From an uncultured Planctomycetia bacterium (GTDB taxonomy: Bacteria > Omnitrophota > Gorgyraeia > 2-01-FULL-45-10), in the NCBI GenBank assembly GCA_964352425.1, contig CAYGRZ010000001.1, forward strand, positions 64,672 to 128,671: a stretch of DNA of 64,000 nucleotides, read 5' to 3'. The notes below the pieces were generated by a model. It did no database searches. It was not told where the DNA came from and saw only the letters and a program-made list of their open reading frames with translations. The position numbers and the translations under genes were made by a program. Shown here piece by piece: positions 21,998 through 56,809 of this stretch (its first letter is position 1; each line of letters begins with the position of its first letter).

Positions 21998-22119
21998 TGG
22001 CGTGTTTAATTATACACCTGCCTTCAGCGCATTGTAAATATATTATTTCGGAGAATTGACTTGCATTTATAACGGGCCTTATGTATAATACTCACGAAAA
22101 ATCGGAGGAGCGCTATTGT

Positions 22120-22491
22120 ATGTGGAACGGCATCAACAGAAGAAGATTCCCGAGAGCAAATTACAAATGCCTCATATCGATAAAGAAGAGGCTCACGTCG
22201 AAGACCATATCGACGCATACCGAGAATATCGGCGCAGGCGGCATCTGCGTACTACTGAAGGAAGACCTCGGCCTGTTCCAGGGTGTTGATATCGAACTCT
22301 ATCTTGATGAAGCGAAGCCGCCGATAAAGAGCGGCGGTACGATCGTCTGGGTCGTGAAGAAGTCCGAGCCGAAGCAGAAGGGCGTCTACATGTACGACAC
22401 CGGCGTGGAGTTCATCGATATTCGCCCGGAAGACCGCGAGAAGATCACCGGGATCGTGGAAAACATACTGAAGGCGCGCAGACAAAAATAG
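22120..22491 (+). CDS. PilZ-domain protein (c-di-GMP receptor)
   Basis: RRRFPR (RxxxR) and TENIGAGGI (DxSxGG) PilZ motifs; GGAGGAG RBS before the ATG at 22120. Confidence 0.75.
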   Translation: MWNGINRRRFPRANYKCLISIKKRLTSKTISTHTENIGAGGICVLLKEDLGLFQGVDIELYLDEAKPPIKSGGTIVWVVKKSEPKQKGVYMYDTGVEFIDIRPEDREKITGIVENILKARRQK

Positions 22492-29552: not shown

Positions 29553-29957
29553 ATGGTAAAAAAGGTACAGGATATTTTCGTAGAGAGAAGGCGCTACGTT
29601 CGCCTGCAGACGCCGATACCGATCGCCTATACCGTCCCGCAGACCGGCAGCGTGCATACCACCAGCACCAAGAATATTTCCGCGGACGGCCTGAGGCTGG
29701 AGACCCATGATAGGGCGCTCAAAGAGGGCGACCTGATAGAGTTGAAGATGACGATTGCAGGCGCGCCGAATCCCGTTCATGCCAAAGGCAAGGTTATCTG
29801 GAAGAAGAAGATGTCGCTCGAAGACGCCGCGCCCTTCGACTGCGGCATAGAGTTCGCCGAGATCGAAGAGGACAACAAAAATACGTTCCTGAAGTTCCTG
29901 TGCGACCTCATATATGATATCAAAAAGGAGCCAAAACATGCCCGTAAGAAAGAATGA
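29553..29957 (+). CDS. PilZ-domain protein
   Basis: RRRYVRLQ and KNISADGL PilZ motifs; internal ATG of ORF 29427 (the upstream part overlaps the promoter). Confidence 0.75.
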   Translation: MVKKVQDIFVERRRYVRLQTPIPIAYTVPQTGSVHTTSTKNISADGLRLETHDRALKEGDLIELKMTIAGAPNPVHAKGKVIWKKKMSLEDAAPFDCGIEFAEIEEDNKNTFLKFLCDLIYDIKKEPKHARKKE

Positions 29958-31600: not shown

Positions 31601-31633
31601 TCATGATGCCGGCCAGGTAGGGCCGTATTTTCC

Positions 31634-31698
31634 TTGATACTTCGGTAGATCTATTGTATAGTAAACCCCGTTAGAAAGGACGGGGCTTTCTAACGGGG
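31634..31698 (+). promoter_or_regulatory. sigma70-like promoter (TTGATA-17-TATAGT) followed by a perfect 13-bp inverted repeat around +1
   Basis: ccccgttagaaag-gacgggg-ctttctaacgggg (31666-31698) directly downstream of the -10. Confidence 0.45.
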
Positions 31699-31724
31699 TA
31701 AATCAATTGCGAAAGGAGGAAAAG

Positions 31725-32066
31725 ATGAAGAAAAGGTATATAGTTTTTTTGTGCGTTGCGATCGCCGCGTGCGTAGTGTGTGCCGCAACGGCCGGCGCTG
31801 CAGAGGAGACGGCGAAGAGTTTCTGGCAGAAGCTCTTTAACTACCCTGCCAATGTGACGAAAGAGTCTGTCAATGTCATCGCGGACACAGGAAAGAAGGG
31901 GACCGAGACCGTCGTCAATGAGGTAAAGACTATCGGGAAGGTCACCTCCGGAGACACCGACAAGGCAAAGGACCTGGTCACCGAGCCGGTAAAAGGAACG
32001 GTTGAGACCGCCAGGACGGCAGTCGAGGGAACCGCGAACGTCCCCGTTACCGCAGCAAAAGAATAA
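31725..32066 (+). CDS. small secreted protein (hypothetical)
   Basis: MKKRYIVFLCVAIAACVVCAATAGAA signal peptide; AAAGGAGGA RBS. Confidence 0.6.
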   Translation: MKKRYIVFLCVAIAACVVCAATAGAAEETAKSFWQKLFNYPANVTKESVNVIADTGKKGTETVVNEVKTIGKVTSGDTDKAKDLVTEPVKGTVETARTAVEGTANVPVTAAKE

Positions 32067-32180
32067 GACGCCCGTTGCGAGTAAGCCACGTCAAGCGTAT
32101 AGATGAATAAACGGGAGAAGCCATATCATCCGAAAATAGATATGGCTTTTTCTGTAGAGACTAATTATACTATTGATATC

Positions 32181-32705
32181 ATGCGATCGCGCGTTTCACT
32201 TATCCTGACGGTGATCGTCACCGCCGTCATCACTATAGCATTGTACCGGCCGGTATCCGTTGTGGCGTTCAGGGTCGCGGAGCCGTACTACGGTTTTCCG
32301 ATCAAGGCCGCCGCTACCGGCGGCAAGCTCGTCATACGTAATGACGTTCTCGGCGACGGCGATTTCGGCACCAAGCGCGGCGGCGGGCGGTCGCATGCCG
32401 GCATCGACATCCTGGCTGCCGTAGGAACGCCTGTCTTCGCTTCGAAGAGCGGCATCGCGTTCTGCGGAAACGTGCCGACGGGATACGGGCGGTATGTGAT
32501 GATCTATCATCCCGACGGCACGCAGACGATGTACGGCCATCTCTCCAACTGGGCCGTCGGGTCGACACAGCAGGTCCGCAAAGGCGAGATGATCGGATAT
32601 GTGGGCAAGACCGGTAATGCCAAAAGCTTGCTTATGCAGGCGCATCTGCACTTCGAGATCAGGAAGGGCGGTGAGCCGGTCGCGCCGCAGCCATTGATGC
32701 GGTAA
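32181..32705 (+). CDS. M23-family metallopeptidase (start uncertain: 32103, 32142 or 32181)
   Basis: HAGIDI...YHPDGTQTMYGHL...HLHFEIR M23 motifs; TM anchor MRSRVSLILTVIV; a candidate promoter TTGCGA-17-TATAGA at 32075-32103 argues against the 32103 start. Confidence 0.7.
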   Translation: MRSRVSLILTVIVTAVITIALYRPVSVVAFRVAEPYYGFPIKAAATGGKLVIRNDVLGDGDFGTKRGGGRSHAGIDILAAVGTPVFASKSGIAFCGNVPTGYGRYVMIYHPDGTQTMYGHLSNWAVGSTQQVRKGEMIGYVGKTGNAKSLLMQAHLHFEIRKGGEPVAPQPLMR

Positions 32706-32728
32706 TTCTACAAAGGGAGACAAGTCCT

Positions 32729-32866
32729 ATGAAAAAATATGCTCTTGCGGTGCTGCTGCTCGCCGTCTGTGCCGTACTGCTCGGCTGCGGCGAAACGGTA
32801 TCGGGGGTCGGTAAAGACGCCAGCAGGATGGGGCGCGGCGTCAATACGTTCTTCTTCAGGCAATAA
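32729..32866 (+). CDS. entericidin (EcnA/EcnB)-like small lipoprotein, 45 aa (not in the supplied ORF track)
   Basis: MKKYALAVLLLAVCAVLLGCGETVSGVGKDASRMGRGVNTFFFRQ; AAGGGAGA RBS; matches the entericidin pattern of lipobox plus G-VG-D...G. Confidence 0.6.
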   Translation: MKKYALAVLLLAVCAVLLGCGETVSGVGKDASRMGRGVNTFFFRQ

Positions 32867-32880
32867 TCGAGCAGGCCCTT

Positions 32881-33594
32881 ATGCCAATTCGTATACGTGA
32901 GATCGACAACATCGGGATACTTGACGTTGACGGGCGGCTCGATATCAATTCGTCCGACATCATCGAGACCGTCGGATGGATGACCAGCACCGGCAAGGTC
33001 AACATGATCATGAACTTCGAGAATGTCGACCTCGTCGATTCCAGCGGCCTTTCGGTGCTGGCGATAGCGTATAAGAACGTTGTGAACCATAAAGGCAGGC
33101 TGAAGTTCGCCGGTGTCCCTCCGTACGTCATGGAGCTTTTCAAGATTGCAAAACTTGATGCCGTCTTCGAAGTCTACCCCGACGAGGAGTCGGCTTTCAG
33201 CAGCTTCCACGAAGAAGAGATAGACCATATCCCGCTGCGGCGCAGGTTCCCGCGTCTCGACATCCATCTCAGCGTCAAATTCGTCCTCTCAAGCGACCGG
33301 AAACACCCGAAGGCTTATAAGGGGCAGGTCATTAATATCAGCGCGGCCGGTCTCTACGTATACACCCCTCACACCTTTCCGGTCAACAGCTCCTTACACA
33401 TGGTCTTCAGCCTCCCGAACAGGCAGGCCGTACTGACGGCCGACGGCAAGGTATCGTGGCTCTCCGACAAGGAGATCCAGTCGCATTATTCTCCCGGCAT
33501 GGGCATCGCGTTCAGCCGCCTCACGCCCGCAAAAGAGCGGGTGATCGTTGACTTTATCGATAAGAACATAAGCCACAGGACAGAGCCGGTATGA
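32881..33594 (+). CDS. STAS-domain (anti-sigma-antagonist-like) / PilZ-domain fusion protein
   Basis: N-terminal STAS-like region (DVDGRLDINS...VDSSGLSVL) and C-terminal PilZ motifs (RRRFPRL, INISAAGL). Confidence 0.75.
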   Translation: MPIRIREIDNIGILDVDGRLDINSSDIIETVGWMTSTGKVNMIMNFENVDLVDSSGLSVLAIAYKNVVNHKGRLKFAGVPPYVMELFKIAKLDAVFEVYPDEESAFSSFHEEEIDHIPLRRRFPRLDIHLSVKFVLSSDRKHPKAYKGQVINISAAGLYVYTPHTFPVNSSLHMVFSLPNRQAVLTADGKVSWLSDKEIQSHYSPGMGIAFSRLTPAKERVIVDFIDKNISHRTEPV

Positions 33595-34607
33595 CACAGG
33601 TTGGGTGCGGTTTTAAAGGATGCGCGGAACAGGCGGTAGCGCTCTCGGAATTCTGTTGGGACCACGTACGCGATAAGGATGCGTATAGCGGGACCCTCGT
33701 GAAGGCCTCCGCCGGCGGCCGGGACTTTAGCTTCTGTAACTTTAAGAAGATCATCCTGAAGAAGGCCCGGTTCGAAAAGGCCTGCATGGCAAAGGCGGAC
33801 CTGTCGCAGGCGGACCTGTCCGGGACTCATTTTTTTGACTGCACGCTCTCCGGCGCCGACCTCATTGGCGCAAACCTCTCGGACTGCGACCTCTCGCACT
33901 GCGACCTGAAGAACGTCGACCTGACAAAGGCGCACCTGGTCAAGGCGAGACTGTGGAACACCGAGCTCGCCGACGCCAACCTCACGGAATGCGACCTGTC
34001 CGGCGCGGACCTGTGGAACGCGGGCCTTTTTAATGTCAAGCTATGGCACACCGTCCTGACAGGCGCACGATCGATCACGAAGATGAGTTTTTCCAGCGGC
34101 GCCAGGATGTATGATAATCCGAAGATAAACGAATCCGGGGCGCTATCTGCCGAGGAATCCTACAGGGACCTGAAGCAATATTTCATGAACAGCGGTATGT
34201 ACAACGATGCGAGCTGGGCGTCATTCAAGGAAAAATCGATGGAGCGGGTCATCCTGAAAAAGAAGGGCGACTGGATCTATATACCGAGCCTGATCATGAA
34301 CATCCTGTGCGGTTACGGCGAGAAGCCATACAGGATCGTCCTGTCCGCTATCGGCACGATAGCCTTATTCGCTATCCTCTATCATTCTTTCAACGCCGTC
34401 CAGGGCCCGTGCAATCCTTCATACCTGATGAGATGGTACGACTACCTCTACTACAGCGCGATAACGTTCACGACCGTCGGATACGGCGATTTCGTGCCGA
34501 AGCCGATCGGCGCTTTCCGCCTGCTTGCCGCAGCCGAGGCGTTCTGCGGCGTGTTCGTTACCGGCCTCTTCATCTTCACGCTCGCAAGGAAATATTCTGC
34601 GAGATAA
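33591..34607 (+). CDS. pentapeptide-repeat protein fused to a 2-TM K+-channel pore (TVGYGD)
   Basis: Tandem A(D/N)LSG(A/T)DL pentapeptide repeats; C-terminal M1-pore helix-TTVGYGD-M2 architecture; ATGA overlap with the STAS-PilZ gene. Confidence 0.75.
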   Translation: MTQVGCGFKGCAEQAVALSEFCWDHVRDKDAYSGTLVKASAGGRDFSFCNFKKIILKKARFEKACMAKADLSQADLSGTHFFDCTLSGADLIGANLSDCDLSHCDLKNVDLTKAHLVKARLWNTELADANLTECDLSGADLWNAGLFNVKLWHTVLTGARSITKMSFSSGARMYDNPKINESGALSAEESYRDLKQYFMNSGMYNDASWASFKEKSMERVILKKKGDWIYIPSLIMNILCGYGEKPYRIVLSAIGTIALFAILYHSFNAVQGPCNPSYLMRWYDYLYYSAITFTTVGYGDFVPKPIGAFRLLAAAEAFCGVFVTGLFIFTLARKYSAR

Positions 34608-34621
34608 ATAAAATACAAATA

Positions 34622-35593
34622 ATGGACCGCAAAAAGCTGGAAGCCGTAAAAAGGGCAAACGCCCTCCTTGGAAACTGCCTCAAAAGCTGCTCGATATGCC
34701 CGCGTACGTGCGGTGTCGACCGCACGGCAGGTAAGTCTGGCTACTGCCGCGCGGCCTTTAACTCCGTCGTGTACAGTTATTCGCCCCACCACGGCGAAGA
34801 GCCGCCGATATCAGGAACCAGGGGCTCGGGCACGATATTCTTCTCCCACTGCAATATGAAATGCGCCTATTGCCAGAATTACGACTTCAGCCAGCTCAAT
34901 AAGGGTGAGGAAGTGACAACCGACAAGCTCGCGGCGATGATGCTCTCGCTGCAGAAGAGAGGATGTCATAATATCAATCTCGTCACGCCGACGCATTACG
35001 TTCCGCAGATACTTGCCTCTCTCGAGATGGCGCTTGAGGGCGGGCTCGAAATACCCATTGTCTATAATACCAGCGGCTATGACCTGGTCGAGACTATCAG
35101 GGCCCTCGATGGGGTCGTCGATATTTACCTGCCCGACATGAGATACTCGGACGATACAATGGCAGGCAAGTACTCCGATGCGGTGCGGTATGTCGAGCAT
35201 AACCGGGCCTGTGTGCGCGAGATGCAGGCCCAGGTGGGGGATCTGGTAATGGACGGTACAGGCATAGCCAAGAGGGGGATCATCATCAGGCTCCTGGCGC
35301 TGCCGGGCGGTATTTCGGGCACGGAGCGGTCGCTGCGCTATATTCGTGAGCATGTCAGCCCTGGCGCTTATTTAAGCATCATGAGCCAGTACTATCCGAC
35401 GTTCAAGGCGCACCAGTACACGGAGATATCCCGCAGCATCTCCGTCGGAGAGTATAAGAATGTAGTTGACGCGGCGCATCTTTTGAGCTTAAATAAAGGT
35501 TGGATACAGGAAGCCCCCGAAGAATTTGAACCGAGATTTTTCGGCACTAACATCAAACCCACAATAGACCGCGATGGCAAAGAAGATCAGTAA
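34622..35593 (+). CDS. radical-SAM protein (PflX/activase-like)
   Basis: CNMKCAYCQN (CX3CX2C); the internal ATG at 34622 is used because the upstream extension of ORF 34307 is Arg-rich shadow. Confidence 0.8.
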   Translation: MDRKKLEAVKRANALLGNCLKSCSICPRTCGVDRTAGKSGYCRAAFNSVVYSYSPHHGEEPPISGTRGSGTIFFSHCNMKCAYCQNYDFSQLNKGEEVTTDKLAAMMLSLQKRGCHNINLVTPTHYVPQILASLEMALEGGLEIPIVYNTSGYDLVETIRALDGVVDIYLPDMRYSDDTMAGKYSDAVRYVEHNRACVREMQAQVGDLVMDGTGIAKRGIIIRLLALPGGISGTERSLRYIREHVSPGAYLSIMSQYYPTFKAHQYTEISRSISVGEYKNVVDAAHLLSLNKGWIQEAPEEFEPRFFGTNIKPTIDRDGKEDQ

Positions 35594-36287
35594 AAAAAGC
35601 TCATACGAAAAACATATAGAGGCCATATCGAAGGTCTCGCAATCGATCACGTCCAACCTCTACCTCGAAGATATCCTGAAGCTCATCGTCACCGTTACCG
35701 CGGAGATTATGGATTCAAAGATATGCTCTCTCATGCTTATAGAGCCAAAGACCGGCAGGCTCGTCCTCAAGGCAACCCAGTCGATGAGCGAAGAGTACAA
35801 TAAGAAGCCGACGCTCAAGATAGGCCAGGGCATAGCCGGTAAGGTAGCTCTCGAAAATAAGCCGCTCGCCGTCTTTGACATATCGGAAGAGCCGGAGTAT
35901 GTATCCAAGGATATCGCGACCAAGGTGGGCCTGCAGTCGCTTCTATCTGTGCCGCTCTCGGTCAAGGGTACGGTGATCGGCGTCCTGAATAATTATACCT
36001 CGCACCCGCATCGTTTTACCCAGTATGAGGTCGATATCATGACGACGGTGGCCAGCCAGGCCGCCATCGTCATCGAGAACGCCGAGCTTATGTTAAAAAC
36101 CAAGGTCATCCAGGATGAGCTTGAATCGCGGAAAGTCGTCGAGAGGGCCAAGGGCATCATGATGCGGCAGCAGGGCATGACCGAAGAAGAGGCCTTCCGG
36201 AAGATCCAGAAGCAGAGCATGGATATGAGAAAGACTATGCGCGAGATAGCAGAGGCGATAATACTTATCGAGAACATGAAGAAGTAG
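35574..36287 (+). CDS. GAF-ANTAR RNA-binding antitermination regulator
   Basis: GAF region, then an ANTAR helix bundle (RKVVERAKGIMMRQQGMTEEEAFRKIQKQSMDMRKTMREIAEAI). Confidence 0.8.
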   Translation: MAKKISKKSSYEKHIEAISKVSQSITSNLYLEDILKLIVTVTAEIMDSKICSLMLIEPKTGRLVLKATQSMSEEYNKKPTLKIGQGIAGKVALENKPLAVFDISEEPEYVSKDIATKVGLQSLLSVPLSVKGTVIGVLNNYTSHPHRFTQYEVDIMTTVASQAAIVIENAELMLKTKVIQDELESRKVVERAKGIMMRQQGMTEEEAFRKIQKQSMDMRKTMREIAEAIILIENMKK

Positions 36288-36320: not shown

Positions 36321-36349
36321 TTGACAATACTGCGTTTGATGCTATGCTG
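36321..36349 (+). promoter_or_regulatory. candidate sigma70 promoter (TTGACA-16-TATGCT) for the nadE leader
   Basis: Consensus -35; the -10 is weaker; ~180 nt leader to nadE. Confidence 0.35.
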
Positions 36350-38289: not shown

Positions 38290-38447
38290 ATTTGAGCACA
38301 TGACTTATGGAGCCGAAGGCGACATAAGTCATGTGTGCGAAAAAAATCCGCCGACTAGTCCTCCGAAGCCAAGCCTGACCAAAGACATTCACAGGCGAAG
38401 GAGGAAGCCAATCTTGACAAGAACCATGCAACGGCGAAGGCGGATGA
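38283..38447 (+). repeat. leader repeat R1, copy a (palindrome CACATGACTTATG-N13-CATAAGTCATGTG plus a conserved 3' block), upstream of the sigma-factor gene
   Basis: ~80% identical to 43503-43657, with compensatory changes in the palindrome arms. Confidence 0.7.
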
Positions 38448-38995
38448 AGAAGGTGGTGGTCACGATGTACAAGCGATTCGATGAGATGATGAAGAAGCTG
38501 TCACCGACACTGCGGGGCATAGCGCACCGCATGAACGGCCATTTCACGTTCTTCACGGATGATGACCTCTACCAGGAAGCGCTCGCGCATCTGTGGGCCA
38601 GTTTCGGGAGAGGCGCCCTGAGGGACAAGACGGATAGCTACATTCTCCAAGGGTGCTATTTCTACCTGAAGAACTACCTGCGCACCTCTCTCGACAAGGC
38701 AAAACTCGTGAGCCTGAGCGAGCTCATCGACGGTCAGGACGTTTCTATCGAGGAGTCGCTCGCATCGAAGGATACGAATGCGCGCGACGATTTAGATGCA
38801 GGACTTCTTGCGGAAAACATCGTATTCAAGAGTCTGGACGCGCGGGAGAGGCTGGTCCTGCGGTACTCGACGGAAGGCCTTACGATCAGAGAGATAGGTA
38901 AGCGCCTCGGCGTTTCCCACGTCATGGTGGTCAAGATAAGGTCGAAGATACGGAAAAAGTGCGATGCATTAAGACGGGGTGGGCATCATGGTTAG
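38444..38995 (+). CDS. RNA polymerase sigma factor (small sigma-70 family, ECF/SigH-like); start 38444 or 38465
   Basis: Region-2-like DDDLYQEALAHLWASFGR and region-4 HTH LTIREIGKRLGVSHVMVVKIRSKIRKK; the 5' part of ORF 38258 lies on the nadE terminator and is rejected. Confidence 0.65.
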   Translation: MKKVVVTMYKRFDEMMKKLSPTLRGIAHRMNGHFTFFTDDDLYQEALAHLWASFGRGALRDKTDSYILQGCYFYLKNYLRTSLDKAKLVSLSELIDGQDVSIEESLASKDTNARDDLDAGLLAENIVFKSLDARERLVLRYSTEGLTIREIGKRLGVSHVMVVKIRSKIRKKCDALRRGGHHG

Positions 38996-41758: not shown

Positions 41759-42994
41759 ATGATAAATACTGGAGATACTGCCTGGATCCTGATGTCGACG
41801 GCACTCGTCATGATGATGACTGCGCCGGGCCTGGCATTCTTCTATGGAGGGCTGGTGAGAAGGAAGAATGTGCTTGCTACCATGATGCAATCGTTCTTCG
41901 TACTGTGCCTCTTAAGCATACAGTGGATACTGTGGGGGTACAGCCTGGCGTTCGGGCCTGACATAGGGCACTTTATCGGAAGCCTGGCATGGTTCGGCCT
42001 CAAAGGGGTGGGCATGGCGCCGAACCCGGATTATGCGGCGACCATACCGCACCTTCTCTTCATGGTATATCAGATGATGTTCGCGGTCATTACGCCTGCC
42101 CTGATCACCGGTGCATTCGCCGAGAGGATGAAGTTCTCGACCTATGCGGTCTTCACGCTCGTCTGGGCAACCCTCGTCTATGACCCGATATGCCACTGGG
42201 TATGGGGTGCCGGAGGCTGGTTATGGAATATGGGAGCTCTGGACTTCGCCGGCGGAACGGTTGTGCACATATCCTCAGGGATAGCCGCACTCGTCTGCGC
42301 GCTCGTACTGGGTAAGAGGCGCGGTTACGGCCGCGAGCCGATGAGCCCACACAACCTGCCGCTGACCATTCTTGGCGCGGCGCTCCTATGGTTCGGCTGG
42401 TTCGGGTTCAATGCGGGAAGCGCCCTCGGAGCCAATGAGCTTGCAGTATGGGCCTTCATCGCGACGAACACCGCTGCGGCAGCGGCAGGCCTTACATGGA
42501 TGTTCATAGAATGGAAAGCCATAGGCAAGCCAACGATACTGGGCGGCGCTACGGGCGCGGTCGCAGGACTTGTTGCCATAACACCGGCTGCAGGTTTCGT
42601 CTCGCCGCTGTCCGCGATATGCATCGGCATATTGGTAAGCGCAGTATGCTATACGGCGGTAGCCGTCATCAAGCTCAAGTTCGGCTATGATGACTCGCTC
42701 GATGCCTTCGGCGTGCACGGCGTCGGCGGCACGGTCGGAGCGCTTGCGACAGGGCTTTTCGCGCAAAAGATCATAAACGTGGCAGGCAATAACGGGCTCT
42801 TCTTCGGCAACGCCAAGATGTTGCTGACACAGGCCATAGGCGTAGGTGCAACAATGATCTATTCCGTCACGGTCACCTTTATACTGCTGAAGGTCCTCGA
42901 TGCGACAATGGGGCTGAGGGTCCCCGATGAGGAAGAGGTCGTCGGTCTGGATATAACACAACACGAAGAGAGCGCATATACGCTACTCGATTAA
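41759..42994 (+). CDS. amt: ammonium transporter
   Basis: 411 aa, ~11 TM helices; Amt/MEP signature blocks (YGGLVRRKN, AGGTVVHISSG, FGFNAGSAL). Confidence 0.9.
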   Translation: MINTGDTAWILMSTALVMMMTAPGLAFFYGGLVRRKNVLATMMQSFFVLCLLSIQWILWGYSLAFGPDIGHFIGSLAWFGLKGVGMAPNPDYAATIPHLLFMVYQMMFAVITPALITGAFAERMKFSTYAVFTLVWATLVYDPICHWVWGAGGWLWNMGALDFAGGTVVHISSGIAALVCALVLGKRRGYGREPMSPHNLPLTILGAALLWFGWFGFNAGSALGANELAVWAFIATNTAAAAAGLTWMFIEWKAIGKPTILGGATGAVAGLVAITPAAGFVSPLSAICIGILVSAVCYTAVAVIKLKFGYDDSLDAFGVHGVGGTVGALATGLFAQKIINVAGNNGLFFGNAKMLLTQAIGVGATMIYSVTVTFILLKVLDATMGLRVPDEEEVVGLDITQHEESAYTLLD

Positions 42995-43006
42995 GGGGGG
43001 TATGTC

Positions 43007-43348
43007 ATGAAACTGATAGTCGCAATACTGCAACCGGAGAAGCTTGAAGATGTCCTTCAGGAGTTGGACAGAGAAGAGATCTACTTAAAGACAGTCTCCA
43101 GCGTGCTTGGGTGCGGCCGCCAAAAAGGCCGTACCGAGGTATATAGAGGAAGGAAAGAGACCGGCAACCTCTTGAAGAAGGTCCGCCTCGAGATAGGGGT
43201 CAATGAACAATTCGTGGAGGCGACGATCCGGGCGATCGTGAGAGGCGCAAAGACAGGCACTATAGGGGACGGCAAGATATTCGTCCTGGACCTGGCAGAA
43301 TGTGTCAGGATACGGACCGGTGAAAGGGGCGGGGATGCTATAGGGTAA
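43007..43348 (+). CDS. glnB: PII nitrogen regulatory protein (GlnB/GlnK family; short T-loop without Tyr51)
   Basis: [16 protein letters not shown]...GCGRQKG...[24 protein letters not shown], colinear with E. coli GlnB. Confidence 0.85.
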
Positions 43349-43363
43349 CTTTTGTTAAAAAAT

Positions 43364-43520
43364 GGTTACCAAGCGAGGCTCCTTTTTACTTGTATAGTTG
43401 TAAGACCGGTTTTTAGGCACATTGTAGTGCATAAGTAGGCAAAGACGTTTATTTGAACATAGGCGTTCAGTTTGGTCAATGAGTATGACCAAAATGAGCG
43501 CTTTTTTATTTGAGCACATA
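43364..43520 (+). repeat. nitrogen-leader repeat, copy d (upstream of glnA; contains GCAC-attgta-GTGC and a TTGGTCA/TGACCAA hairpin)
   Basis: Aligns with 41578-41700; merges 3' into repeat R1 copy b. Confidence 0.6.
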
Positions 43521-43657
43521 ATTTATGGAGCGATAGCGACATAAATTATAAGTGCGAAAATAATCCGCCGACTAGTCCTCCGAAGCTTCGCAGAGTCTAT
43601 GAGTAGAAGCGAAGGCGGAAGCCAATCTTGACCAGAAACATACAACGGCGAAGGCGG
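43503..43657 (+). repeat. leader repeat R1, copy b (palindrome CACATAATTTATG-N11-CATAAATTATAAGTG) upstream of glnA
   Basis: Direct repeat of 38283-38447. Confidence 0.7.
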
Positions 43658-43687
43658 ATATCAACCATAGCCATAAAGGAGGGCACC

Positions 43688-45880
43688 ATGTCTGTCAGGC
43701 AAGATGCATTGTTCAGGATCAATGGCAACAAGGTCGACGCGATCGAGGAGATAAAGAAGGTTTCCTCGTATTACGGAGAGAATACTTTCAACCTATCGAC
43801 GATGAAGAAGCATATCTCCGAGGCGACATTCAACGCTTTCAAGCGCTGGATGTCGGAAGGCGCGATCATCTCGCTCGAAGAGGCCAATGAAATAGCCAAT
43901 GCCATGAAGGAGTGGGCGATGGCCAAGGGTGCGACTTATTACACGCACTGGTTCCAGCCCATGACCGGCCTCACCGCAGAAAAGCACGACAGCTTCATCT
44001 CTATCGTGGAGCACGGCAAGGTCATCGAAAAGTTTTCCGGCTCCAAGCTTATCCAGGGCGAGCCGGACGCATCGAGCTTCCCTTCAGGCGGGATACGCGC
44101 CACGTTCGAAGCGCGCGGCTATACCGCATGGGACCCCTCGAGCCCGGCGTTCATCATCGAATCGAAGCTCGGCAAGACGCTCTGCATCCCTACGATATTC
44201 ATATCATATAACGGAGAGGCCCTGGACAAGAAGCTCCCATTGCTGCGATCAGACAATGCCCTGAACAAAGCGGCGATAAACCTGCTGAATCTCTTTGGTC
44301 ACAAGGACGTGAAGAAGGTCTTCTCGACATGCGGGCCGGAGCAGGAGTATTTCCTGATCGATAAAAACTACTACAATCTGCGGCAGGACCTAATCATGAC
44401 GGGCCGCACGCTTGTCGGCGCGCCATCCCCGAAAGGACAACAGCTCGAAGACCAATATTTCGGCACGATCAAGGAACGCGTGATAAATTACATGTTCGAG
44501 GTCGCTGAAGAGGCATACAGGCTCGGCATTCCCTTAATGACCAGACACAACGAGGTTGCGCCGCACCAGTACGAATTCGCTCCGATATTCGAGGAGTCGA
44601 ATATTGCAGCCGACCATAACCAGTTACTCATGGAGATCATGAAGAAGGTCGCCTTGAGACACGGGCGCGTCTGCCTGCTGCACGAGAAGCCGTTCGCAGG
44701 GATTAACGGCAGCGGTAAGCACCTGAACTGGTCCCTTGCCGATGACAAGGGCAACAACCTGCTTAATCCCGGCGAGACGCCGGAGGATAACCTGCAGTTC
44801 CTCACGGTGCTTGTGGCGGTATTGCGGGCTGTGTACGTGCACGCAGATCTTCTGCGTGCCAGCGTCGCGCTGGCCGGCAACGAGCACCGGCTTGGCGCAA
44901 ATGAAGCTCCACCTGCCATCATCAGCGTCTTCCTTGGCGACCAGCTCACGTCAATCCTTGACATGATAGAGAAGGGCGTAAAGACGAAGGTCTCGAAGCA
45001 CGACATTGTCGATCTCGGCATTGCGACGTTACCGCAATTCAATAAGGATGCGACCGACCGCAACCGCACGTCGCCGTTCGCGTTCACCGGCGCAAAGTTC
45101 GAGTTCCGTGCAGTCGGCTCATCGCAGAACATATCGACGCCGATAGCGGTGGTGAACACGATCATCGCGGAGTCGCTCGACTACGTAGCCGACAGGATAA
45201 AGAAGGCAGCCGCAGGCAAGGATTTTAATACCGCGGTCCTGAAGACGATAGCCGAGCTCATTAAAGAGACGAAGGCGATCCGGTTCGAGGGCAATAACTA
45301 TGCAGAAGAGTGGCTGAAAGAAGCGAAGAAGAGGAAGCTGCCCAATGTGGCATCTACGGCAGAGGCGCTCGAAGCGTTGATCGAAAAGAAGAATATCGAG
45401 CTTTTCGAAAAATACAAAGTATTCTCAAAGGAAGAGATCGTGGCGCGATACCATATCTGGATCCACATGTATAATACGATCCTCGAGATCGAGGCTAATA
45501 CGCTCAACGAAATGGTCAATGCGAGCGTCGTGCCGTTCGGCCTGGAATATGAAAAGCTCCTGGCCGAGAACCTCGCCGACCTTGTGGGGCTCAAGAAGAA
45601 TGCGAAACTGAAGGTCGAGCCCGCGGCACTCGAAGACCTGAAGAGGCACCTGGGCGATGTCGTCTCAATGATCTACTATGTCAGGCGCAATACTGCTGCT
45701 ATGGTCAAGCTTTTGGAGAAGACCAAGAGAGCCCATCATGAAGAACGCGCTGCCATATATTTCATTGAGCTGAAGCCGATCATGGAGCACATCCGCAAGC
45801 ACGTCGATGCGCTCGAATGCGTCGTATCGGACGAGCACTGGGATCTGCCGAAGTACAGGGAGATGCTCTTCATTAAGTAA
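43688..45880 (+). CDS. glnA: glutamine synthetase, type III (GlnN-like)
   Basis: ~730 aa with GS-III architecture; AAGGAGGG RBS before the ATG at 43688; the upstream part of ORF 43628 lies on the repeat. Confidence 0.85.
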   Translation: MSVRQDALFRINGNKVDAIEEIKKVSSYYGENTFNLSTMKKHISEATFNAFKRWMSEGAIISLEEANEIANAMKEWAMAKGATYYTHWFQPMTGLTAEKHDSFISIVEHGKVIEKFSGSKLIQGEPDASSFPSGGIRATFEARGYTAWDPSSPAFIIESKLGKTLCIPTIFISYNGEALDKKLPLLRSDNALNKAAINLLNLFGHKDVKKVFSTCGPEQEYFLIDKNYYNLRQDLIMTGRTLVGAPSPKGQQLEDQYFGTIKERVINYMFEVAEEAYRLGIPLMTRHNEVAPHQYEFAPIFEESNIAADHNQLLMEIMKKVALRHGRVCLLHEKPFAGINGSGKHLNWSLADDKGNNLLNPGETPEDNLQFLTVLVAVLRAVYVHADLLRASVALAGNEHRLGANEAPPAIISVFLGDQLTSILDMIEKGVKTKVSKHDIVDLGIATLPQFNKDATDRNRTSPFAFTGAKFEFRAVGSSQNISTPIAVVNTIIAESLDYVADRIKKAAAGKDFNTAVLKTIAELIKETKAIRFEGNNYAEEWLKEAKKRKLPNVASTAEALEALIEKKNIELFEKYKVFSKEEIVARYHIWIHMYNTILEIEANTLNEMVNASVVPFGLEYEKLLAENLADLVGLKKNAKLKVEPAALEDLKRHLGDVVSMIYYVRRNTAAMVKLLEKTKRAHHEERAAIYFIELKPIMEHIRKHVDALECVVSDEHWDLPKYREMLFIK

Positions 45881-45896
45881 TGATAATGGCGTGCAT

Positions 45897-46163
45897 ATGA
45901 TGACGATCCTGATGGAACATGATGAGAACAAGATCCGGGAGATGCTCAATCAGCTCCTGACTGAAGAGCATTCGGAAGCAAAACGCGGCATCCTGTACAG
46001 GACGATCGTCAACGCGATCGAACGACCGCTCTTCGAGCATGTGCTGGAGCGAACAGATGGCAACCAGCTCAAGGCGGCCAGGATACTGGGGATCAACCGG
46101 AATACCATGCGTGCCAAGATAAGGAAGCTCGGCATAGACGTGCATAGATGGAAGGTGCATTAA
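45897..46163 (+). CDS. stand-alone Fis-type HTH DNA-binding protein (NtrC C-terminal-domain-like)
   Basis: GNQLKAARILGINRNTMRAKIRKLGI Fis/NtrC HTH; 88 aa. Confidence 0.6.
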   Translation: MMTILMEHDENKIREMLNQLLTEEHSEAKRGILYRTIVNAIERPLFEHVLERTDGNQLKAARILGINRNTMRAKIRKLGIDVHRWKVH

Positions 46164-46164
46164 G

Positions 46165-49100
46165 ATGAAGGACCAGCGAAGACCGGACAGGCAGGGCTTA
46201 TACGACCCGTCGTTCGAGCACGATGCGTGCGGGGTCGGATTCGTCTGCAATATCGCCGGTGCCGCATCGAATGAGATTGTCCGGCAGGGGATCGATGTCC
46301 TGAAGCGCCTGTCCCATCGCGGCGCCACGGGCGCCGACCCGAAGACGGGTGACGGCGCCGGCATCCTCATCCAGATGCCTCACGAGTTTCTCGCGCATGC
46401 CTGCTCCGCCATAGGCATACAGCTCCCGCCAAAGGGCGGCTACGGCACGGGGCTCATATTCCTGCCCGCGCAGGACGACGAGCGCACATTCTACAAACAG
46501 ACCATCGAGAAGGCGGCCGCCGAAGAGGGGCAGAAGGTCCTGGGATGGCGTACCGTGCCTGTAGACGATTCAGACATCGGCACCACTGCCAAAGAGACGA
46601 AACCTGCCATCGAGCAGATCTTCATAGCCAGGAGCGCCGACATCGCCGACACATTAGCGTTCGAGCGCGCGCTCTATATCATCCGTAAGAAGGCGGAGAA
46701 TGCCGTTTGCGAATCGGCGATCGCTCATAAATCGTTCTTCTACATCACCAATCTTTCGGCGAGGACGATCTCCTATAAAGGCCTCCTGATGCCGGGCCAG
46801 GTCGACGGCTTCTTCCTTGACCTCAAGGACCCGCTTGTGAAGAGCGCCATTTGCCTTGTGCATTCGCGCTACAGCACGAACACGTTTCCTACATGGGACC
46901 TCGCGCAGCCTTTCCGTTTCATAGCTCACAACGGCGAGATCAATACCCTGCGCGGCAACATCAACTGGATGAAGGCGCGCGAGAGCCTTCTGGAAAGCGA
47001 GCTCTTTGGTAAGAACCTGAAGAATATCAAGCCGGTCATCGTTCCGGGCGGCAGCGATTCGGCGACCATAGATAATGTCTTTGAGCTGTTGGCATTGTCC
47101 GGCAGAAGCCTGTCGCACGTAATGATGATGCTGATCCCGAGCGCGTGGGAACGCAATCTCTCTATAGACGCCAAGCAGCGCGACTTCTACAAATATCACG
47201 CCTGCGTCATGGAACCGTGGGACGGCCCGGCAGCCATTGTATTTACCGATGGCACGAGGGTAGGCGCGGTCCTCGACCGGAACGGTTTGAGACCGGCGCG
47301 CTATATTATTACGAAGAACGGCGTCGCGGTGATGGCGTCAGAGGCAGGCGTGATAGACATACCTCCGCAGGATATAGCACACTCGGGCAGGCTTGAACCA
47401 GGCAGGATATTCTTTATCAACACGGATGACAGTCGCATCATACATGACGACGAGCTGAAATCAATAATGGCGAAGAAACAGCCCTATGGCCAGTGGCTGA
47501 AAGAAGCCTTAGTCGAGCTCGAGGACGTTGCCGCGCACAAAGGCACAGGCCGCAGCAAAGCCGGTGACGATGTCTTCACGCTCATGCAGGCATTCGGCTA
47601 TACCAGAGACGACATGAAATACATCCTTAAACCCATGGCTCAGGACGGTAAAGAGCCTATCGGGTCGATGGGGAATGACACGCCGCATGCGCTTCTTTCG
47701 ATGAGGCCTCAGCTTTTGTACGCCTATTTCAAACAACTCTTCGCGCAGGTCACCAATCCGCCAATCGACCCCATACGGGAAGAATGTGTCATGAGCCTCG
47801 ACAGCTACATCGGGCCGCAGAAGAATCTACTCTCAGAGAGCCCGAAGCACTGCCATAAGCTGCATGTCAAAACGCCTGTCCTGACAAATGAAGAGCTGGA
47901 AAAGATACGCCATATTAAGGAGAACAGTTTCAGGACGAAGACGATATCGACTCTCTTTGCGCCGGACAATGAAAAGAACCTCTCCACCGCGCTCGACCGC
48001 GTGTGTGCCGAGGCGGAGGCGGCGATCGCTCATGGGTACAGCTTCATAATCCTGAGCGACAGGAACGTCGGCAGCGACGCCGCGGCTTTACCCGCCCTTG
48101 CCGTGATAGGCGCTGTCCATCACCACCTCGTGCGCAAGGCGCTCAGGACGCATATCGGGATCATCATAGAAAGCGGCGAGCCAAGGGAGGTACATCATTT
48201 CGCACTCCTCTTCGCATACGGCGCTGACTGCGTGAACCCGTATCTGGCGTATGACGCAGTATCATATCTTATTGAAACGAAAGAGCTTGATCTGGACAGG
48301 AAGAAAGCGCTCAATAATTACCGCCATGCCGTAGAGCACGGTATCCTGAAGATCATTTCGAAGATGGGCATCTCGACGCTCCAAAGCTACCGGGGCGCCC
48401 AGATATTTGAAGCGCTCGGTCTGCATGATGAAGTCATAGAGAAATGCTTTGAAGGGACCGTATCGAGGATAGGCGGCGCGCGGCTCGAGACGATCGCGAA
48501 AGAGACGATAGCCCGACACCGCGTGGCATATCCGGACGTGCCCTATAGGGCACCGATACTTGAAACCGGCGGCCTCTACCAGTACAAGATGGATGGCGAG
48601 TTCCACATGTGGAATCCGGACACGATCGCGAGCCTCCAGGACGCGACGCGGGAGAATGATTACAATAAATACAGGCAGTTCGCCAAACTTGTCAACGACC
48701 AGTCAAACTACCCGACGACGCTGCGCGGTCTTTTACAGTTCAAACAGGGCACGCCCGTTCCCATAGAAGAGGTCGAGCCCGTAGAATCAATATTCAAGCG
48801 GTTCGCGACAGGCGCCATGAGTTTCGGTTCCATTTCGAAGGGCGCACATGAGACGCTGGCGATCGCCATGAACAGGATAGGCGGCCGCTCGAATACAGGC
48901 GAAGGAGGGGAGGACCCTGCAAGGTTCTCGCCTCTGGCAAACGGAGATTCTACACGGAGTGCCATCAAGCAGGTCGCCTCAGGCAGGTTCGGCGTCACGA
49001 CGAATTACCTGGTCAATGCCGACGAACTGCAGATCAAGATAGCGCAGGGCGCGAAACCCGGTGAAGGCGGGCAGCTGCCCGGCCATAAAGTGAGCGCGAT

Positions 49101-56205: not shown

Positions 56206-56222
56206 TAAAAAAGGATCATGAT

Positions 56223-56801: not shown

Positions 56802-56809
56802 AGTATATT

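What the first reader, a model, noticed from the sequence alone, without database searches (positions are those of the whole stretch)
32881..34607. Translationally coupled STAS-PilZ fusion and pentapeptide-repeat K+-channel: candidate c-di-GMP-gated channel module
ORF 32881-33594 fuses an N-terminal STAS-like domain (anti-sigma-antagonist/SulP type) to a C-terminal PilZ domain. Its stop overlaps (ATGA) the start of 33591-34607. That gene encodes a Cys-rich N-terminus, ~8 pentapeptide repeats (A[DN]LSGADL), and a C-terminal 2-TM potassium-channel pore with an intact TVGYGD selectivity filter. Neither architecture is among the textbook ones. The pairing suggests a receptor (PilZ) / partner-switch (STAS) element controlling an ion channel.
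Basis: partly seen in the sequence, partly recalled or inferred. Interest (0 to 1): 0.7.

Follow-up and report, generated by a model that had tools for sequence, protein, structure and literature searches.

The report
HalA-like K+ channel beside STAS-PilZ gene
Both genes are real: a likely cyclic-di-GMP sensor protein overlaps a potassium channel built like the anti-phage channel HalA. Related genomes often carry one gene without the other, so they are neighbours that may cooperate, not a proven sensor-channel unit.

Summary
ORF 32881-33594 encodes a STAS+PilZ protein with intact c-di-GMP motifs. It overlaps by ATGA ORF 33591-34607, which encodes a Cys/His knuckle, about 24 pentapeptide units and a 2-TM pore with TVGYGD.

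The channel architecture has a characterised precedent, the Hailong effector HalA (PDB 9nyi). HalA is the only whole-chain structural match, but this protein is not a HalA member: 47 bits against a cut-off of 250, no HalB gene, and no defence context.

Both genes sit in a vertically inherited Omnitrophota gene string (PanD-Def-YqeY-M23-STAS/PilZ-channel-rSAM-GAF/ANTAR-NadE).
- 14 of 18 channel loci carry STAS-PilZ.
- Only 25 of 64 STAS-PilZ loci carry the channel.
- The channel was lost at least about 14 times.
- STAS-PilZ is equally conserved without the channel.
- Mirror-tree analysis shows no excess co-variation between the two.

Three things favour coupling. The adjacency is ancient. The 4-nt overlap is the tightest junction in the block (46% of loci). 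Other c-di-GMP genes (HD-GYP, YajQ) flank the channel in other lineages.

Best reading: two independently functional genes, possibly a facultative regulator and its target. About 0.3 probability of a true c-di-GMP-controlled channel.

The parts
32881..33594 (+). STAS-PilZ gene (237 aa), a soluble candidate c-di-GMP receptor
   Evidence: ORF. Pfam STAS 55 bits and PilZ 53.6 bits. Family of 280 clusters of about 237 aa. AF2 model pLDDT 67; its two halves match SpoIIAA/RsbV and Alg44/YcgR PilZ structures.
32887..33195 (+). STAS domain (residues 3-105). Invariant DINSS at residues 21-25. Ser54 sits at the SpoIIAA Ser58 position, where the family consensus is Tyr.
   Evidence: site 54: Y 58, S 2, H 1; TM about 0.8 to anti-sigma antagonists, normalised to target.
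33238..33561 (+). PilZ domain (residues 120-227) with RxxxR (R121-R125, nt 33241-33255) and NxSxxG (N152-G157, nt 33334-33351)
   Evidence: Motifs intact in 47 of 48 family members tested.
33577..33594 (+). Junction: AGGA Shine-Dalgarno-like motif (33577-33580) inside the end of gene 1, and the ATGA stop/start overlap (33591-33594)
   Evidence: Read from the sequence. The exact 4-nt overlap occurs in 46% of 35 loci, the tightest junction in the block.
33591..34607 (+). Pentapeptide-repeat 2-TM K+ channel gene (338 aa) with HalA-like architecture
   Evidence: AF2 pLDDT 88.8. The only whole-chain PDB match is HalA 9nyi_A.
33606..33665 (+). N-terminal C-x4-C-x10-C-x2-H knuckle (residues 6-25), a putative Zn site
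   Evidence: Conserved in 95 of 120 homologues. Also present in Thermococci, Agarilytica and Hydrogenedentota relatives. Absent from the 287-300 aa forms. Metal binding is inferred.
33723..34082 (+). Right-handed beta-helix of about 24 pentapeptide units (residues 45-164), the cytoplasmic 'crown' domain
34140..34319 (+). Highly conserved three-helix linker (residues 184-243, containing SAEESYRDLK...YNDASWASFKEK...CGYGEKP) between the beta-helix and TM1
   Evidence: Invariant columns; helices.
34323..34589 (+). Pore module: TM1 (245-268), pore helix (282-294), filter TVGYGD (295-300, nt 34473-34490) and TM2 (305-333). The protein ends 5 residues after TM2.
   Evidence: Filter is TVGYGD in 111 of 120 and TVGFGD in 6 of 120.
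31707..36287 (+). Putative transcription unit containing the pair: x119, M23 peptidase (32103-32705), 45-aa lipoprotein-like ORF (32729-32866), STAS-PilZ, channel, radical SAM (34622-35593), GAF-ANTAR (35574-36287)
   Evidence: Terminator-like site at 31610-31625 plus promoter-like site at 31634-31662 upstream, and the next promoter-like site at 36321-36348 (consensus matches only). Pfam. Synteny.

Best explanation
These are two real and separately functional genes. They sit in a vertically inherited, co-directional gene string of an Omnitrophota genome.

Gene 2 encodes a 2-TM potassium channel. By analogy with K+ channels and with HalA it is tetrameric. Its only cytoplasmic part is N-terminal: a Cys3His knuckle, a six-turn pentapeptide beta-helix and a conserved helical linker. 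This is the same build as the Hailong effector HalA, so the pore is most likely gated from below by this 'crown' in response to a cytosolic ligand or partner (inferred).

Gene 1 encodes a soluble PilZ c-di-GMP receptor with a STAS output domain that is not phosphorylatable in most of the family.

The two genes are probably co-transcribed and co-translated (ATGA overlap), but they are not an obligate module. Each occurs without the other in the same genomic slot in many relatives. STAS-PilZ therefore has a main function that does not need the channel. Any c-di-GMP control of the channel would be an optional extra, comparable to a signal protein with several targets.

Shown here: domains, motifs, fold, synteny and independent presence/absence. 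Inferred: tetramer, K+ selectivity, c-di-GMP binding and the gating mechanism.
For: - Domains and motifs.
- Structure: channel model pLDDT 88.8. HalA 9nyi_A is the only full-length PDB match, 331 columns at E 2.6e-9. The STAS and PilZ halves match solved homologues.
- Vertical inheritance: the same order PilZ-PanD-Def-YqeY-x119-M23-[STAS-PilZ]-[channel]-[HD-GYP]-rSAM-GAF/ANTAR-NadE appears across dozens of loci.
- Slot contents in 46 loci with both flanks visible: SP+CHAN 22, SP alone 17, SP+HD 3, SP+CHAN+HD 2, CHAN+HD 1, CHAN alone 1.
- P(SP|CHAN)=14/18 and P(CHAN|SP)=25/64. These fit independent presence at about 0.78 and about 0.39.
- At least 14 state changes of channel presence on the STAS-PilZ tree, with the root inferred as 'present'.
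- No pseudogene remnants in loci that lack either gene.
- STAS-PilZ without the channel is at least as conserved as with it: 0.632 against 0.587 mean pairwise identity, and PilZ motifs intact in 22 of 22.
- Mirror-tree: SP-CHAN r 0.86 (partial 0.47) is no higher than CHAN-rSAM at 0.88 (partial 0.53).
- Tight or overlapping junctions also join unrelated genes in this block, e.g. PanD-Def with |gap|<=10 in 75% of loci.
- Distant pentapeptide K+ channels in Thermococci, Peptostreptococcaceae, Planctomycetota and others have unrelated neighbours.
Against: - The SP->channel junction is the tightest in the block: exact 4-nt overlap in 46% of loci, against at most 23% elsewhere.
- The adjacency is ancestral and survives where the flanks are rearranged (L016, L142, L012, L013).
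- When both genes are present they are adjacent, with one exception (L136) where a PilZ gene lies between them.
- Other c-di-GMP-related genes flank the channel in other lineages: HD-GYP directly downstream in L001 and L003, and YajQ/DUF520 directly downstream in L019-L021.
- The asymmetric co-occurrence is also what a multi-target regulator such as GlnK with AmtB would show (own knowledge).
- Sampling was anchored on one gene or the other, not on the backbone, so a true association statistic could not be computed.
- Whether channel-less loci have a channel elsewhere in the genome is unknown.
Confidence: 0.5

Rival explanations
1. STAS-PilZ is a c-di-GMP-dependent accessory subunit. It docks on the channel's cytoplasmic beta-helix or linker and opens or closes the K+ pore, linking c-di-GMP level to K+ flux or membrane potential. 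In genomes without the channel it serves another target.
For: - The adjacency is ancient and survives rearrangement.
- The 4-nt overlap is the most frequent of any junction in the block, and there is an AGGA 10 nt before the channel start.
- PilZ binding motifs are intact family-wide.
- HalA shows that this channel architecture is gated through its cytoplasmic crown by a ligand supplied by the neighbouring gene.
- HD-GYP and YajQ (a family with c-di-GMP effectors, PMC4199771) flank the channel in other lineages.
- STAS domains regulate membrane transporters elsewhere, e.g. SLC26/SulP and MlaB (own knowledge; SLC26A11 and STAS hits).
Against: - The two genes are lost independently, many times.
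- STAS-PilZ constraint is not relaxed without the channel.
- There is no excess co-variation.
- The adjacency formed only once in evolution, inside a block that is syntenic anyway.
- PilZ genes are dense in this genome (3 in 64 kb), which raises the chance of adjacency.
- Channels lacking the N-terminal knuckle, and channels lacking STAS-PilZ altogether, persist.
Confidence: 0.3
2. A Hailong-like guard or abortive-infection module. STAS-PilZ (or its ligand) holds a toxic depolarising channel closed, and an insult such as phage infection releases it.
For: - Whole-length similarity to the HalA model (E 1.6e-12) and to the HalA structure.
- A two-gene arrangement with the putative regulator next to the channel, as for HalB-HalA.
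Against: - HalA score is 47 bits against a cut-off of 250, and sequence identity is 14%.
- No nucleotidyltransferase neighbour.
- No PADLOC hit.
- The pair is embedded in housekeeping synteny and vertically inherited, not in a defence island.
- No relatives found on viral contigs.
- STAS-PilZ was lost at least 4 times with the channel retained (L001/2, L006, L008, L017). That would be lethal for a guard-toxin pair, since loss of HalB activity is toxic.
- The canonical K+ filter argues for a physiological K+ channel.
Confidence: 0.03
3. STAS-PilZ is a classical partner-switching anti-sigma-factor antagonist whose availability is tuned by c-di-GMP. It acts on an RsbW-like anti-sigma kinase encoded elsewhere and has nothing to do with the channel.
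For: - The STAS half superposes best on SpoIIAA, RsbV and RsbS.
- TIGR00377 anti-sigma antagonist scores 53.4 bits against a cut-off of 53.45.
- The window copy has Ser at the phospho-site.
- RsbW-STAS pairs exist in Omnitrophota (L061, L076).
- This would explain why STAS-PilZ persists without the channel.
Against: - The family consensus at the phospho-site is Tyr (58 of 61).
- No RsbW-like kinase, PP2C phosphatase or anti-sigma gene lies within about 20 kb or in the conserved synteny.
- The nearby sigma-70-r4 protein (38420-38995) is four genes away and separated by a promoter-like site.
Confidence: 0.12

Closest known systems
HalA, effector of the Hailong anti-phage system (PDB 9nyi; Tan et al. 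2025, as summarised in PMC13434031 and PMC13586616)
   Same: Same whole-chain architecture and size (333 against 338 aa): a cytoplasmic N-terminal pentapeptide-repeat domain, a helical linker and a C-terminal K+-channel-type 2-TM pore. It is the only solved structure that aligns over the full length (331 columns). The NCBIfam HalA model aligns from residue 41 to 335. In both cases the neighbouring gene encodes a soluble protein tied to a nucleotide ligand.
   Different: 14% identity and 47 bits against the 250-bit cut-off. The partner is a STAS-PilZ protein, not the HalB nucleotidyltransferase. The setting is a chromosomal housekeeping one, not a mobile or defence locus. The partner is dispensable in nature. 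The filter is the canonical TVGYGD, whereas HalA is reported to depolarise with Na+ influx. I could not read HalA's own filter sequence.
Canonical 2-TM / pore-loop K+ channels (KcsA, KvAP pore, NaK, MlotiK1; Pfam Ion_trans_2)
   Same: TM1, pore helix, TVGYGD and TM2 topology.
   Different: There is no C-terminal gating domain (no RCK, no CNBD, no C-terminal bundle); the protein ends 5 residues after TM2. All the cytoplasmic mass is an N-terminal beta-helix.
PilZ-domain c-di-GMP adaptors (YcgR, MotI/DgrA, Alg44, VCA0042/PlzD, MrkH, PlzA)
   Same: PilZ beta-barrel with a flexible RxxxR loop and the D/NxSxxG motif. These are small soluble proteins that act through protein-protein contacts.
   Different: The N-terminal partner domain is STAS instead of YcgR-N/PilZN. 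The fusion is rare, about 25-30 clusters at 50% identity among 1.84 billion representatives. No paper describing it was found. No solved chain covers both domains.
STAS proteins: SpoIIAA/RsbV anti-sigma antagonists, and transporter-associated STAS (SLC26/SulP C-terminal domains, MlaB)
   Same: The fold matches at TM about 0.8, normalised to target. STAS domains are established regulators of membrane transport proteins (own knowledge).
   Different: Tyr replaces the phosphorylatable Ser in 58 of 61 family members. There is an invariant DINSS motif of unknown role. The domain is fused to PilZ. No kinase or phosphatase partner lies nearby.
Cyclic-dinucleotide control of K+ transport by c-di-AMP (KtrA/KtrC, CpaA, KhtT, KdpD; own knowledge), and GlnK-AmtB as a model of a multi-target signal protein encoded next to one membrane target
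   Same: Concept: a small nucleotide-binding protein or domain plugs or modulates a cation channel or transporter. The co-occurrence is asymmetric and non-obligate.
   Different: The messenger here would be c-di-GMP acting through PilZ. I found no ion-channel target reported for that route. No interaction has been demonstrated.

Membership tests
Hailong HalA (NCBIfam NF051894 equivalog) | Score at or above the curated cut-off of the HalA model | tested here: not met
   47.3 bits against a cut-off of 250, although the alignment is end to end. Ten distant homologues score 25-38 bits or not at all.
Hailong HalA | Adjacent HalB nucleotidyltransferase gene | tested here: not met
   Neighbours are STAS-PilZ upstream and radical SAM (or HD-GYP) downstream in every locus examined. 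No PADLOC hit.
Hailong HalA | Pentapeptide-repeat cytoplasmic domain plus a C-terminal K+-channel-like TM domain, with the same overall fold | tested here: met
   Pfam. Foldseek 9nyi_A, 331 aligned columns, E 2.6e-9. Literature description.
Hailong HalA | Tetramer gated by oligodeoxyadenylate; toxic or depolarising when unguarded; anti-phage phenotype | not testable with these tools
   Indirect evidence only. The partner gene has been lost repeatedly in nature with the channel kept, which argues against unguarded toxicity.
K+ channel pore family (Pfam Ion_trans_2, PF07885) | Two TM helices flanking a pore helix and a T-V-G-Y-G-D selectivity filter | tested here: met
   50.3 bits against a cut-off of 22.5. 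TM1 245-268, pore helix 282-294, filter 295-300, TM2 305-333. Filter conserved in 117 of 120.
K+ channel pore family | K+-selective conduction | not testable with these tools
   Inferred from the canonical filter only.
Pentapeptide-repeat proteins (PF00805 / Rfr fold) | Tandem A(D/N)LXX units forming a right-handed quadrilateral beta-helix | tested here: met
   99.8 bits. About 24 units in register. AF2 model pLDDT above 90 across residues 45-160. Matches PRP structures.
PilZ c-di-GMP receptors (PF07238) | PilZ fold with RxxxR and (D/N)xSxxG binding motifs | tested here: met
   53.6 bits. R121-R125 and N152-G157 are invariant or near-invariant. The fold matches c-di-GMP-bound Alg44, YcgR and VCA0042.
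PilZ c-di-GMP receptors | Actual c-di-GMP binding | not testable with these tools
   Requires DRaCALA, ITC or similar.
Anti-sigma-factor antagonists (SpoIIAA/RsbV, TIGR00377) | STAS fold and a score above the model cut-off | tested here: inconclusive
   Pfam STAS is clearly met (55 against 22.6). TIGR00377 scores 53.4 against 53.45, marginally below. The fold matches SpoIIAA and RsbV at TM about 0.8.
Anti-sigma-factor antagonists (partner switching) | Conserved phosphorylatable Ser (SpoIIAA S58 position), and a cognate RsbW/SpoIIAB kinase or PP2C phosphatase | tested here: not met
   The site is Tyr in 58 of 61 family members, and Ser only in this window and its 93% twin. No kinase or phosphatase in the conserved neighbourhood or within about 20 kb.
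   14 of 18 channel loci have STAS-PilZ, but only 25 of 64 STAS-PilZ loci have the channel. At least 14 state changes. No relaxation of constraint and no excess co-variation.

The most novel reading that the evidence does not exclude
STAS-PilZ is a c-di-GMP-dependent gating subunit of a HalA-type potassium channel. That would be the first ion channel shown to be controlled by c-di-GMP through a PilZ adaptor.

It would also mean that the ligand-gated 'crown' mechanism found in the Hailong defence effector comes from a widespread family of housekeeping K+ channels in bacteria and archaea (pentapeptide beta-helix plus 2-TM pore), whose gating inputs are swapped between lineages: STAS-PilZ, YajQ, HD-GYP-linked c-di-GMP signalling, and oligo-dA in Hailong.
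Probability: 0.3. Interest if true: 0.75.

Novelty: new variant of a known kind. Interest (0 to 1): 0.42.

Why it matters
HalA (2025) showed that a pentapeptide-repeat 'crown' can gate a K+-channel-like pore in response to a nucleotide ligand made by the neighbouring gene.

This window shows that the same architecture also exists as an ordinary, vertically inherited chromosomal gene with a canonical K+ filter. It is abundant in Omnitrophota, and remote relatives occur in Thermococci, Peptostreptococcaceae, Planctomycetota and other groups, always outside Hailong. What gates these channels is unknown.

The frequent, though not obligatory, pairing with a rare STAS-PilZ c-di-GMP receptor gives one concrete and testable candidate, and HD-GYP or YajQ genes flank the channel in other lineages. 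If confirmed, it would connect c-di-GMP signalling to K+ flux or membrane potential, a link so far known only for c-di-AMP. It would also suggest that the defence effector evolved from a physiological channel.

If not confirmed, the case is a useful caution. An ATGA overlap and conserved adjacency inside a long syntenic block do not by themselves establish a functional module.

Tried and rejected
- **Hailong membership.** Rejected. The HalA score is far below cut-off, there is no HalB and no PADLOC hit, and nothing was found on viral contigs. The viral scan used patterns specific to the Omnitrophota orthogroup, so it says nothing about remote relatives.
- **Phospho-dependent partner switching as a family trait.** Rejected on the Tyr at the phospho-site and the lack of a kinase or phosphatase.
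- **Independent STAS-channel associations.** The stand-alone STAS genes near K+ channels in L061 and L076 belong to RsbW-STAS-MlaE-MlaF clusters, so this was a false lead. L082 (short Ion_trans_2 channel followed 7 nt later by a STAS gene) is a single unreplicated case.
- **Relaxed-constraint test on STAS-PilZ in channel-less lineages.** No relaxation found.
- **Mirror-tree co-variation.** No excess over the radical-SAM neighbour. Only 17 non-redundant loci, so power is low.
- **Pseudogene remnants** in loci lacking either gene: none.
- **Sequence-profile search of the PDB for HalA.** Not found at E<=1e-6, so I could not compare HalA's filter residues.
- **The primary Hailong paper (PMC12360457)** is not in the held library. 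I relied on two secondary descriptions.
- **Literature searches** for a PilZ-regulated K+ channel or a STAS-PilZ protein found nothing relevant.
- **Look-up of the window's own long contig.** It returned only 4-kb Logan contigs, so no precomputed annotation of the wider region was available.
- **Minus-strand ORFs overlapping the two genes** (e.g. 32659-33267, 33486-33935). Not pursued. The plus-strand frames are explained by large conserved families.
Full report
**1. Observation**

32881-33594 (+) encodes 237 aa and 33591-34607 (+) encodes 338 aa. The stop of the first and the start of the second share ATGA at 33591-33594, and an AGGA lies 10 nt upstream of the second start.

Pfam confirms all four domains above their curated cut-offs: STAS 55.0 bits (residues 3-105), PilZ 53.6 (120-227), Pentapeptide 99.8 and Ion_trans_2 50.3 (259-334). 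The TVGYGD filter (residues 295-300) lies between hydrophobic segments 245-268 and 305-333, directly after a modelled pore helix. The N-terminal C-x4-C-x10-C-x2-H motif is conserved in 95 of 120 homologues.

One correction: the beta-helix has about 24 pentapeptide units (six turns, residues 45-164), not about 8. Both proteins belong to conserved families, with 1129 and 280 clusters at E<=1e-5. Every named member is a Candidatus Omnitrophota MAG. These are real genes from an Omnitrophota genome.

**2. The two proteins**

*Channel.* The AF2 model is confident (mean pLDDT 88.8). From N- to C-terminus it shows:
- a knuckle (1-28) and a helix (29-41);
- a beta-helix (45-160);
- three linker helices (184-243), which carry the most conserved sequence of the family;
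- TM1, pore helix, filter and TM2, with the protein ending 5 residues after TM2.

All the cytoplasmic mass is therefore N-terminal. The filter is TVGYGD in 111 of 120 homologues and TVGFGD in 6.

*STAS-PilZ.* The model is moderate (pLDDT 67). Its halves match anti-sigma antagonists (SpoIIAA, RsbV, 4hyl; TM about 0.8 normalised to target) and c-di-GMP-bound PilZ domains (Alg44, YcgR, VCA0042). No solved chain covers both halves. The c-di-GMP motifs RxxxR (R121-R125) and NxSxxG (N152-G157) are intact throughout the family.

At the SpoIIAA Ser58 position the family has Tyr in 58 of 61 members. Only this window and its 93% twin have Ser. No RsbW-type kinase or PP2C phosphatase occurs in the conserved neighbourhood or within about 20 kb. 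Phospho-dependent partner switching is therefore not a family property.

The STAS-PilZ fusion is rare: roughly 25-30 full-length clusters at 50% identity among 1.84 billion representatives. I found no paper that describes it.

**3. A known precedent for the channel**

NCBIfam's model for HalA, the effector of the Hailong anti-phage system, aligns with the channel from residue 41 to 335, but at 47 bits against a cut-off of 250. Foldseek against the PDB returns HalA bound to oligodeoxyadenylate (9nyi_A) as the only whole-chain match: 331 columns, E 2.6e-9, 14% identity. Every other hit covers only the beta-helix.

The literature describes HalA as pentapeptide repeats plus a K+-channel domain. 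It forms a tetramer with a cytoplasmic crown that binds oligo-dA made by the neighbouring HalB nucleotidyltransferase, and it depolarises the cell when the ligand is removed.

The window protein shares the architecture but is not a HalA. The score fails, there is no HalB, PADLOC gives no hit, the context is housekeeping, and no relatives were found on viral contigs.

A scan of species-representative genomes found full-length relatives at 23-32% identity in Thermococci, Agarilytica, Polyangiaceae, Planctomycetota, Hydrogenedentota, Nitrospirota, ANME-1 and many Peptostreptococcaceae. All have unrelated neighbours and none reaches the HalA cut-off. Their TVGYGD is partly an ascertainment effect, because the scan pattern contained it. 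The Cys3His knuckle recurs in the Thermococci, Agarilytica and Hydrogenedentota proteins.

**4. Is the pair a module?**

*Anchoring on the channel.* Of 18 orthologous loci, 14 have STAS-PilZ immediately upstream. The exceptions are L001/L002 (the closest relative, 72% identity), L006, L008 and L017. Deeper Omnitrophota channels (L019-L021, 35-41% identity) sit in a different context, SucC-SucD-channel-YajQ, without STAS-PilZ.

*Anchoring on STAS-PilZ.* In 80 metagenome loci, 64 have at least 300 nt downstream. Only 25 of those carry the channel and 39 do not.

*Synteny.* All these loci share one backbone: PilZ-PanD-Def-(CSD)-YqeY-(TauE)-x119-(M23)-(45-aa ORF)-[STAS-PilZ]-[channel]-[HD-GYP]-radical SAM-GAF/ANTAR-NadE. 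In 46 loci with both flanks visible the slot holds:

| Slot contents | Loci |
|---|---|
| SP+CHAN | 22 |
| SP alone | 17 |
| SP+HD | 3 |
| SP+CHAN+HD | 2 |
| CHAN+HD | 1 |
| CHAN alone | 1 |

*Independence.* P(SP|CHAN)=0.78 and P(CHAN|SP)=0.39 are exactly what independent presence at about 0.78 and about 0.39 would give.

*Losses.* On a STAS-PilZ tree of 61 loci, channel presence changes state at least 14 times, with the root inferred as 'present'. That means repeated loss. No remnants remain in loci lacking either gene.

*Constraint.* STAS-PilZ from channel-less loci is at least as conserved as from channel-bearing loci: 0.632 against 0.587 mean pairwise identity, with PilZ motifs intact in 22 of 22.

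*Co-variation.* Pairwise-distance correlation between STAS-PilZ and the channel (r 0.86, partial 0.47) does not exceed that between the channel and the unrelated radical-SAM neighbour (r 0.88, partial 0.53).

Together these results show that STAS-PilZ has a function independent of the channel, that the channel works without STAS-PilZ, and that the adjacency can be explained by a single ancestral arrangement inside a conserved block.

**5. What still speaks for a link**

- The STAS-PilZ->channel junction is the tightest of all junctions in the block: exact 4-nt overlap in 46% of 35 loci, against at most 23% elsewhere. However, unrelated PanD->Def are equally close (|gap|<=10 in 75%).
- The pair stays adjacent in deep lineages where M23 or the radical-SAM gene have moved (L016, L142, L012, L013).
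- Other c-di-GMP-related genes touch the channel in other lineages. An HD-GYP protein (HHERPDGSGYP) lies directly downstream in L001 and L003. YajQ/DUF520, a family with demonstrated c-di-GMP effectors (PMC4199771), lies directly downstream in L019-L021.
- On the other hand, PilZ genes are dense here (three in 64 kb), and the YajQ case is a single evolutionary event.
- The asymmetric, non-obligate co-occurrence also resembles a multi-target signal protein encoded next to one of its membrane targets, such as GlnK-AmtB (own knowledge).

**6. Transcriptional context**

Consensus scans place a terminator-like site (31610-31625) and a promoter-like site (31634-31662) upstream of x119, and the next promoter-like site (36321-36348) before NadE. 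This suggests a seven-gene unit, 31707-36287, of which the pair is only a part. The evidence is weak, since these are consensus matches only.

**7. Mechanism**

*Most likely (0.5).* The channel is a K+-selective tetramer gated from the cytoplasm by its own beta-helix crown and linker, as in HalA, by an unknown ligand or partner. STAS-PilZ is a c-di-GMP adaptor whose principal target lies elsewhere. The two are co-expressed neighbours, not an obligate unit.

*Rival (0.3).* STAS-PilZ additionally docks on the crown and makes gating c-di-GMP-dependent.

*Minor rivals.* A c-di-GMP-tuned anti-sigma antagonist unrelated to the channel (0.12). A Hailong-like guard module (0.03), which is contradicted by the repeated natural loss of the supposed guard with the channel kept.

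*Shown:* domains, motifs, fold, synteny, independent presence/absence.
*Inferred:* oligomeric state, selectivity, c-di-GMP binding, gating.

**8. Novelty and limits**

This is a new variant of a known kind: a non-defence, canonical-filter relative of the HalA architecture, next to a rare STAS-PilZ fusion.

Limits:
- Sampling was anchored on one gene or the other, not on the backbone.
- Genome-wide absence of the channel could not be checked.
- The NJ tree from 237 residues probably inflates the count of state changes.
- The mirror-tree test used only 17 non-redundant loci.
- No complex prediction was possible.
- The primary Hailong paper was not available.

Noticed in passing
L001 6034-6921; L003 6011-6898; also L089, L099, L104, L105: A 295-aa HD_5 protein with a full HD-GYP signature (HHERPDGSGYP / HHERLDGSGYP), a candidate c-di-GMP phosphodiesterase. 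It is a third facultative occupant of the same slot, directly after the channel or after STAS-PilZ. It is absent from this window.
   Followed up: partly
L019 1751-2254; L020 5277-5777; L021 2769-3272: In deeper Omnitrophota lineages the channel sits in a different context (SucC-SucD-channel). It is followed at 10-16 nt by YajQ/DUF520 (203-213 bits), a family with known c-di-GMP effectors.
   Followed up: partly
window 32729-32866 (+): A conserved 45-aa ORF with a lipoprotein-type signal (MKKYALAVLLLAVCAVLLGCGETVSGVGKD...), entericidin-like by eye, between the M23 peptidase and STAS-PilZ. It is called as a gene in L001, L003, L005 and L086. No Pfam hit.
   Followed up: partly
L082 118-612 and 619-978: A short (164 aa) Ion_trans_2 K+ channel without pentapeptide repeats, followed 7 nt later by a stand-alone STAS protein (67 bits), in another Omnitrophota MAG. 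This is a single independent channel-STAS adjacency.
   Followed up: no
L061 144-2368; L076 2306-4644 (-): RsbW-like kinase, STAS (with the canonical DSSG phospho-site), MlaE-like permease and MlaF-like ATPase clusters lie next to K+ channel genes in two Omnitrophota contigs. The STAS looks MlaB-like but is paired with a kinase.
   Followed up: partly
window 52303-59008 (+): kdpA-kdpB-kdpC followed by a KdpD-like protein (KdpD sensor, Usp, DUF4118 and GAF domains), with no histidine-kinase domain detected in the Pfam hits. This K+-uptake system lies 18 kb from the channel.
   Followed up: partly
window 11951-13480 (+); 22081-22491 (+); 29553-29957 (+): More c-di-GMP machinery in the window: a GAF-HD_5 (HD-GYP-type, 139.6 bits) protein and two stand-alone PilZ proteins. 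The PilZ at 29553 is part of the conserved synteny. PilZ genes are unusually dense, three in 64 kb.
   Followed up: partly
window 32941-32955 (residues 21-25 of STAS-PilZ): An invariant DINSS motif in the STAS half, together with Tyr at the usual phospho-Ser position. The function is unknown and this is not a feature I know from SpoIIAA or RsbV.
   Followed up: no
L022 7947-11123; L023 7965-9098: Thermococci have full-length pentapeptide K+ channels with the same Cys3His knuckle. In L022 the next gene encodes a 662-aa Ser/Thr protein kinase.
   Followed up: no
L043, L044, L051, L056-L058, L060, L062, L064, L069, L076, L077: A second Omnitrophota K+ channel family of about 258 aa. It has a helical, TPR-like N-terminus (conserved ...EKEA..FL.Q.K..EA..LF.KA...Y...G.H...A.C.ASA.SCW...) in place of pentapeptide repeats. 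Only the pore resembles the window channel.
   Followed up: no
window 41759-52138 (+): A nitrogen-assimilation block: Amt ammonium transporter, PII, type III glutamine synthetase and large glutamate-synthase-like ORFs. It includes an Amt-PII pair, the textbook example of a signal protein encoded next to its membrane target.
   Followed up: partly
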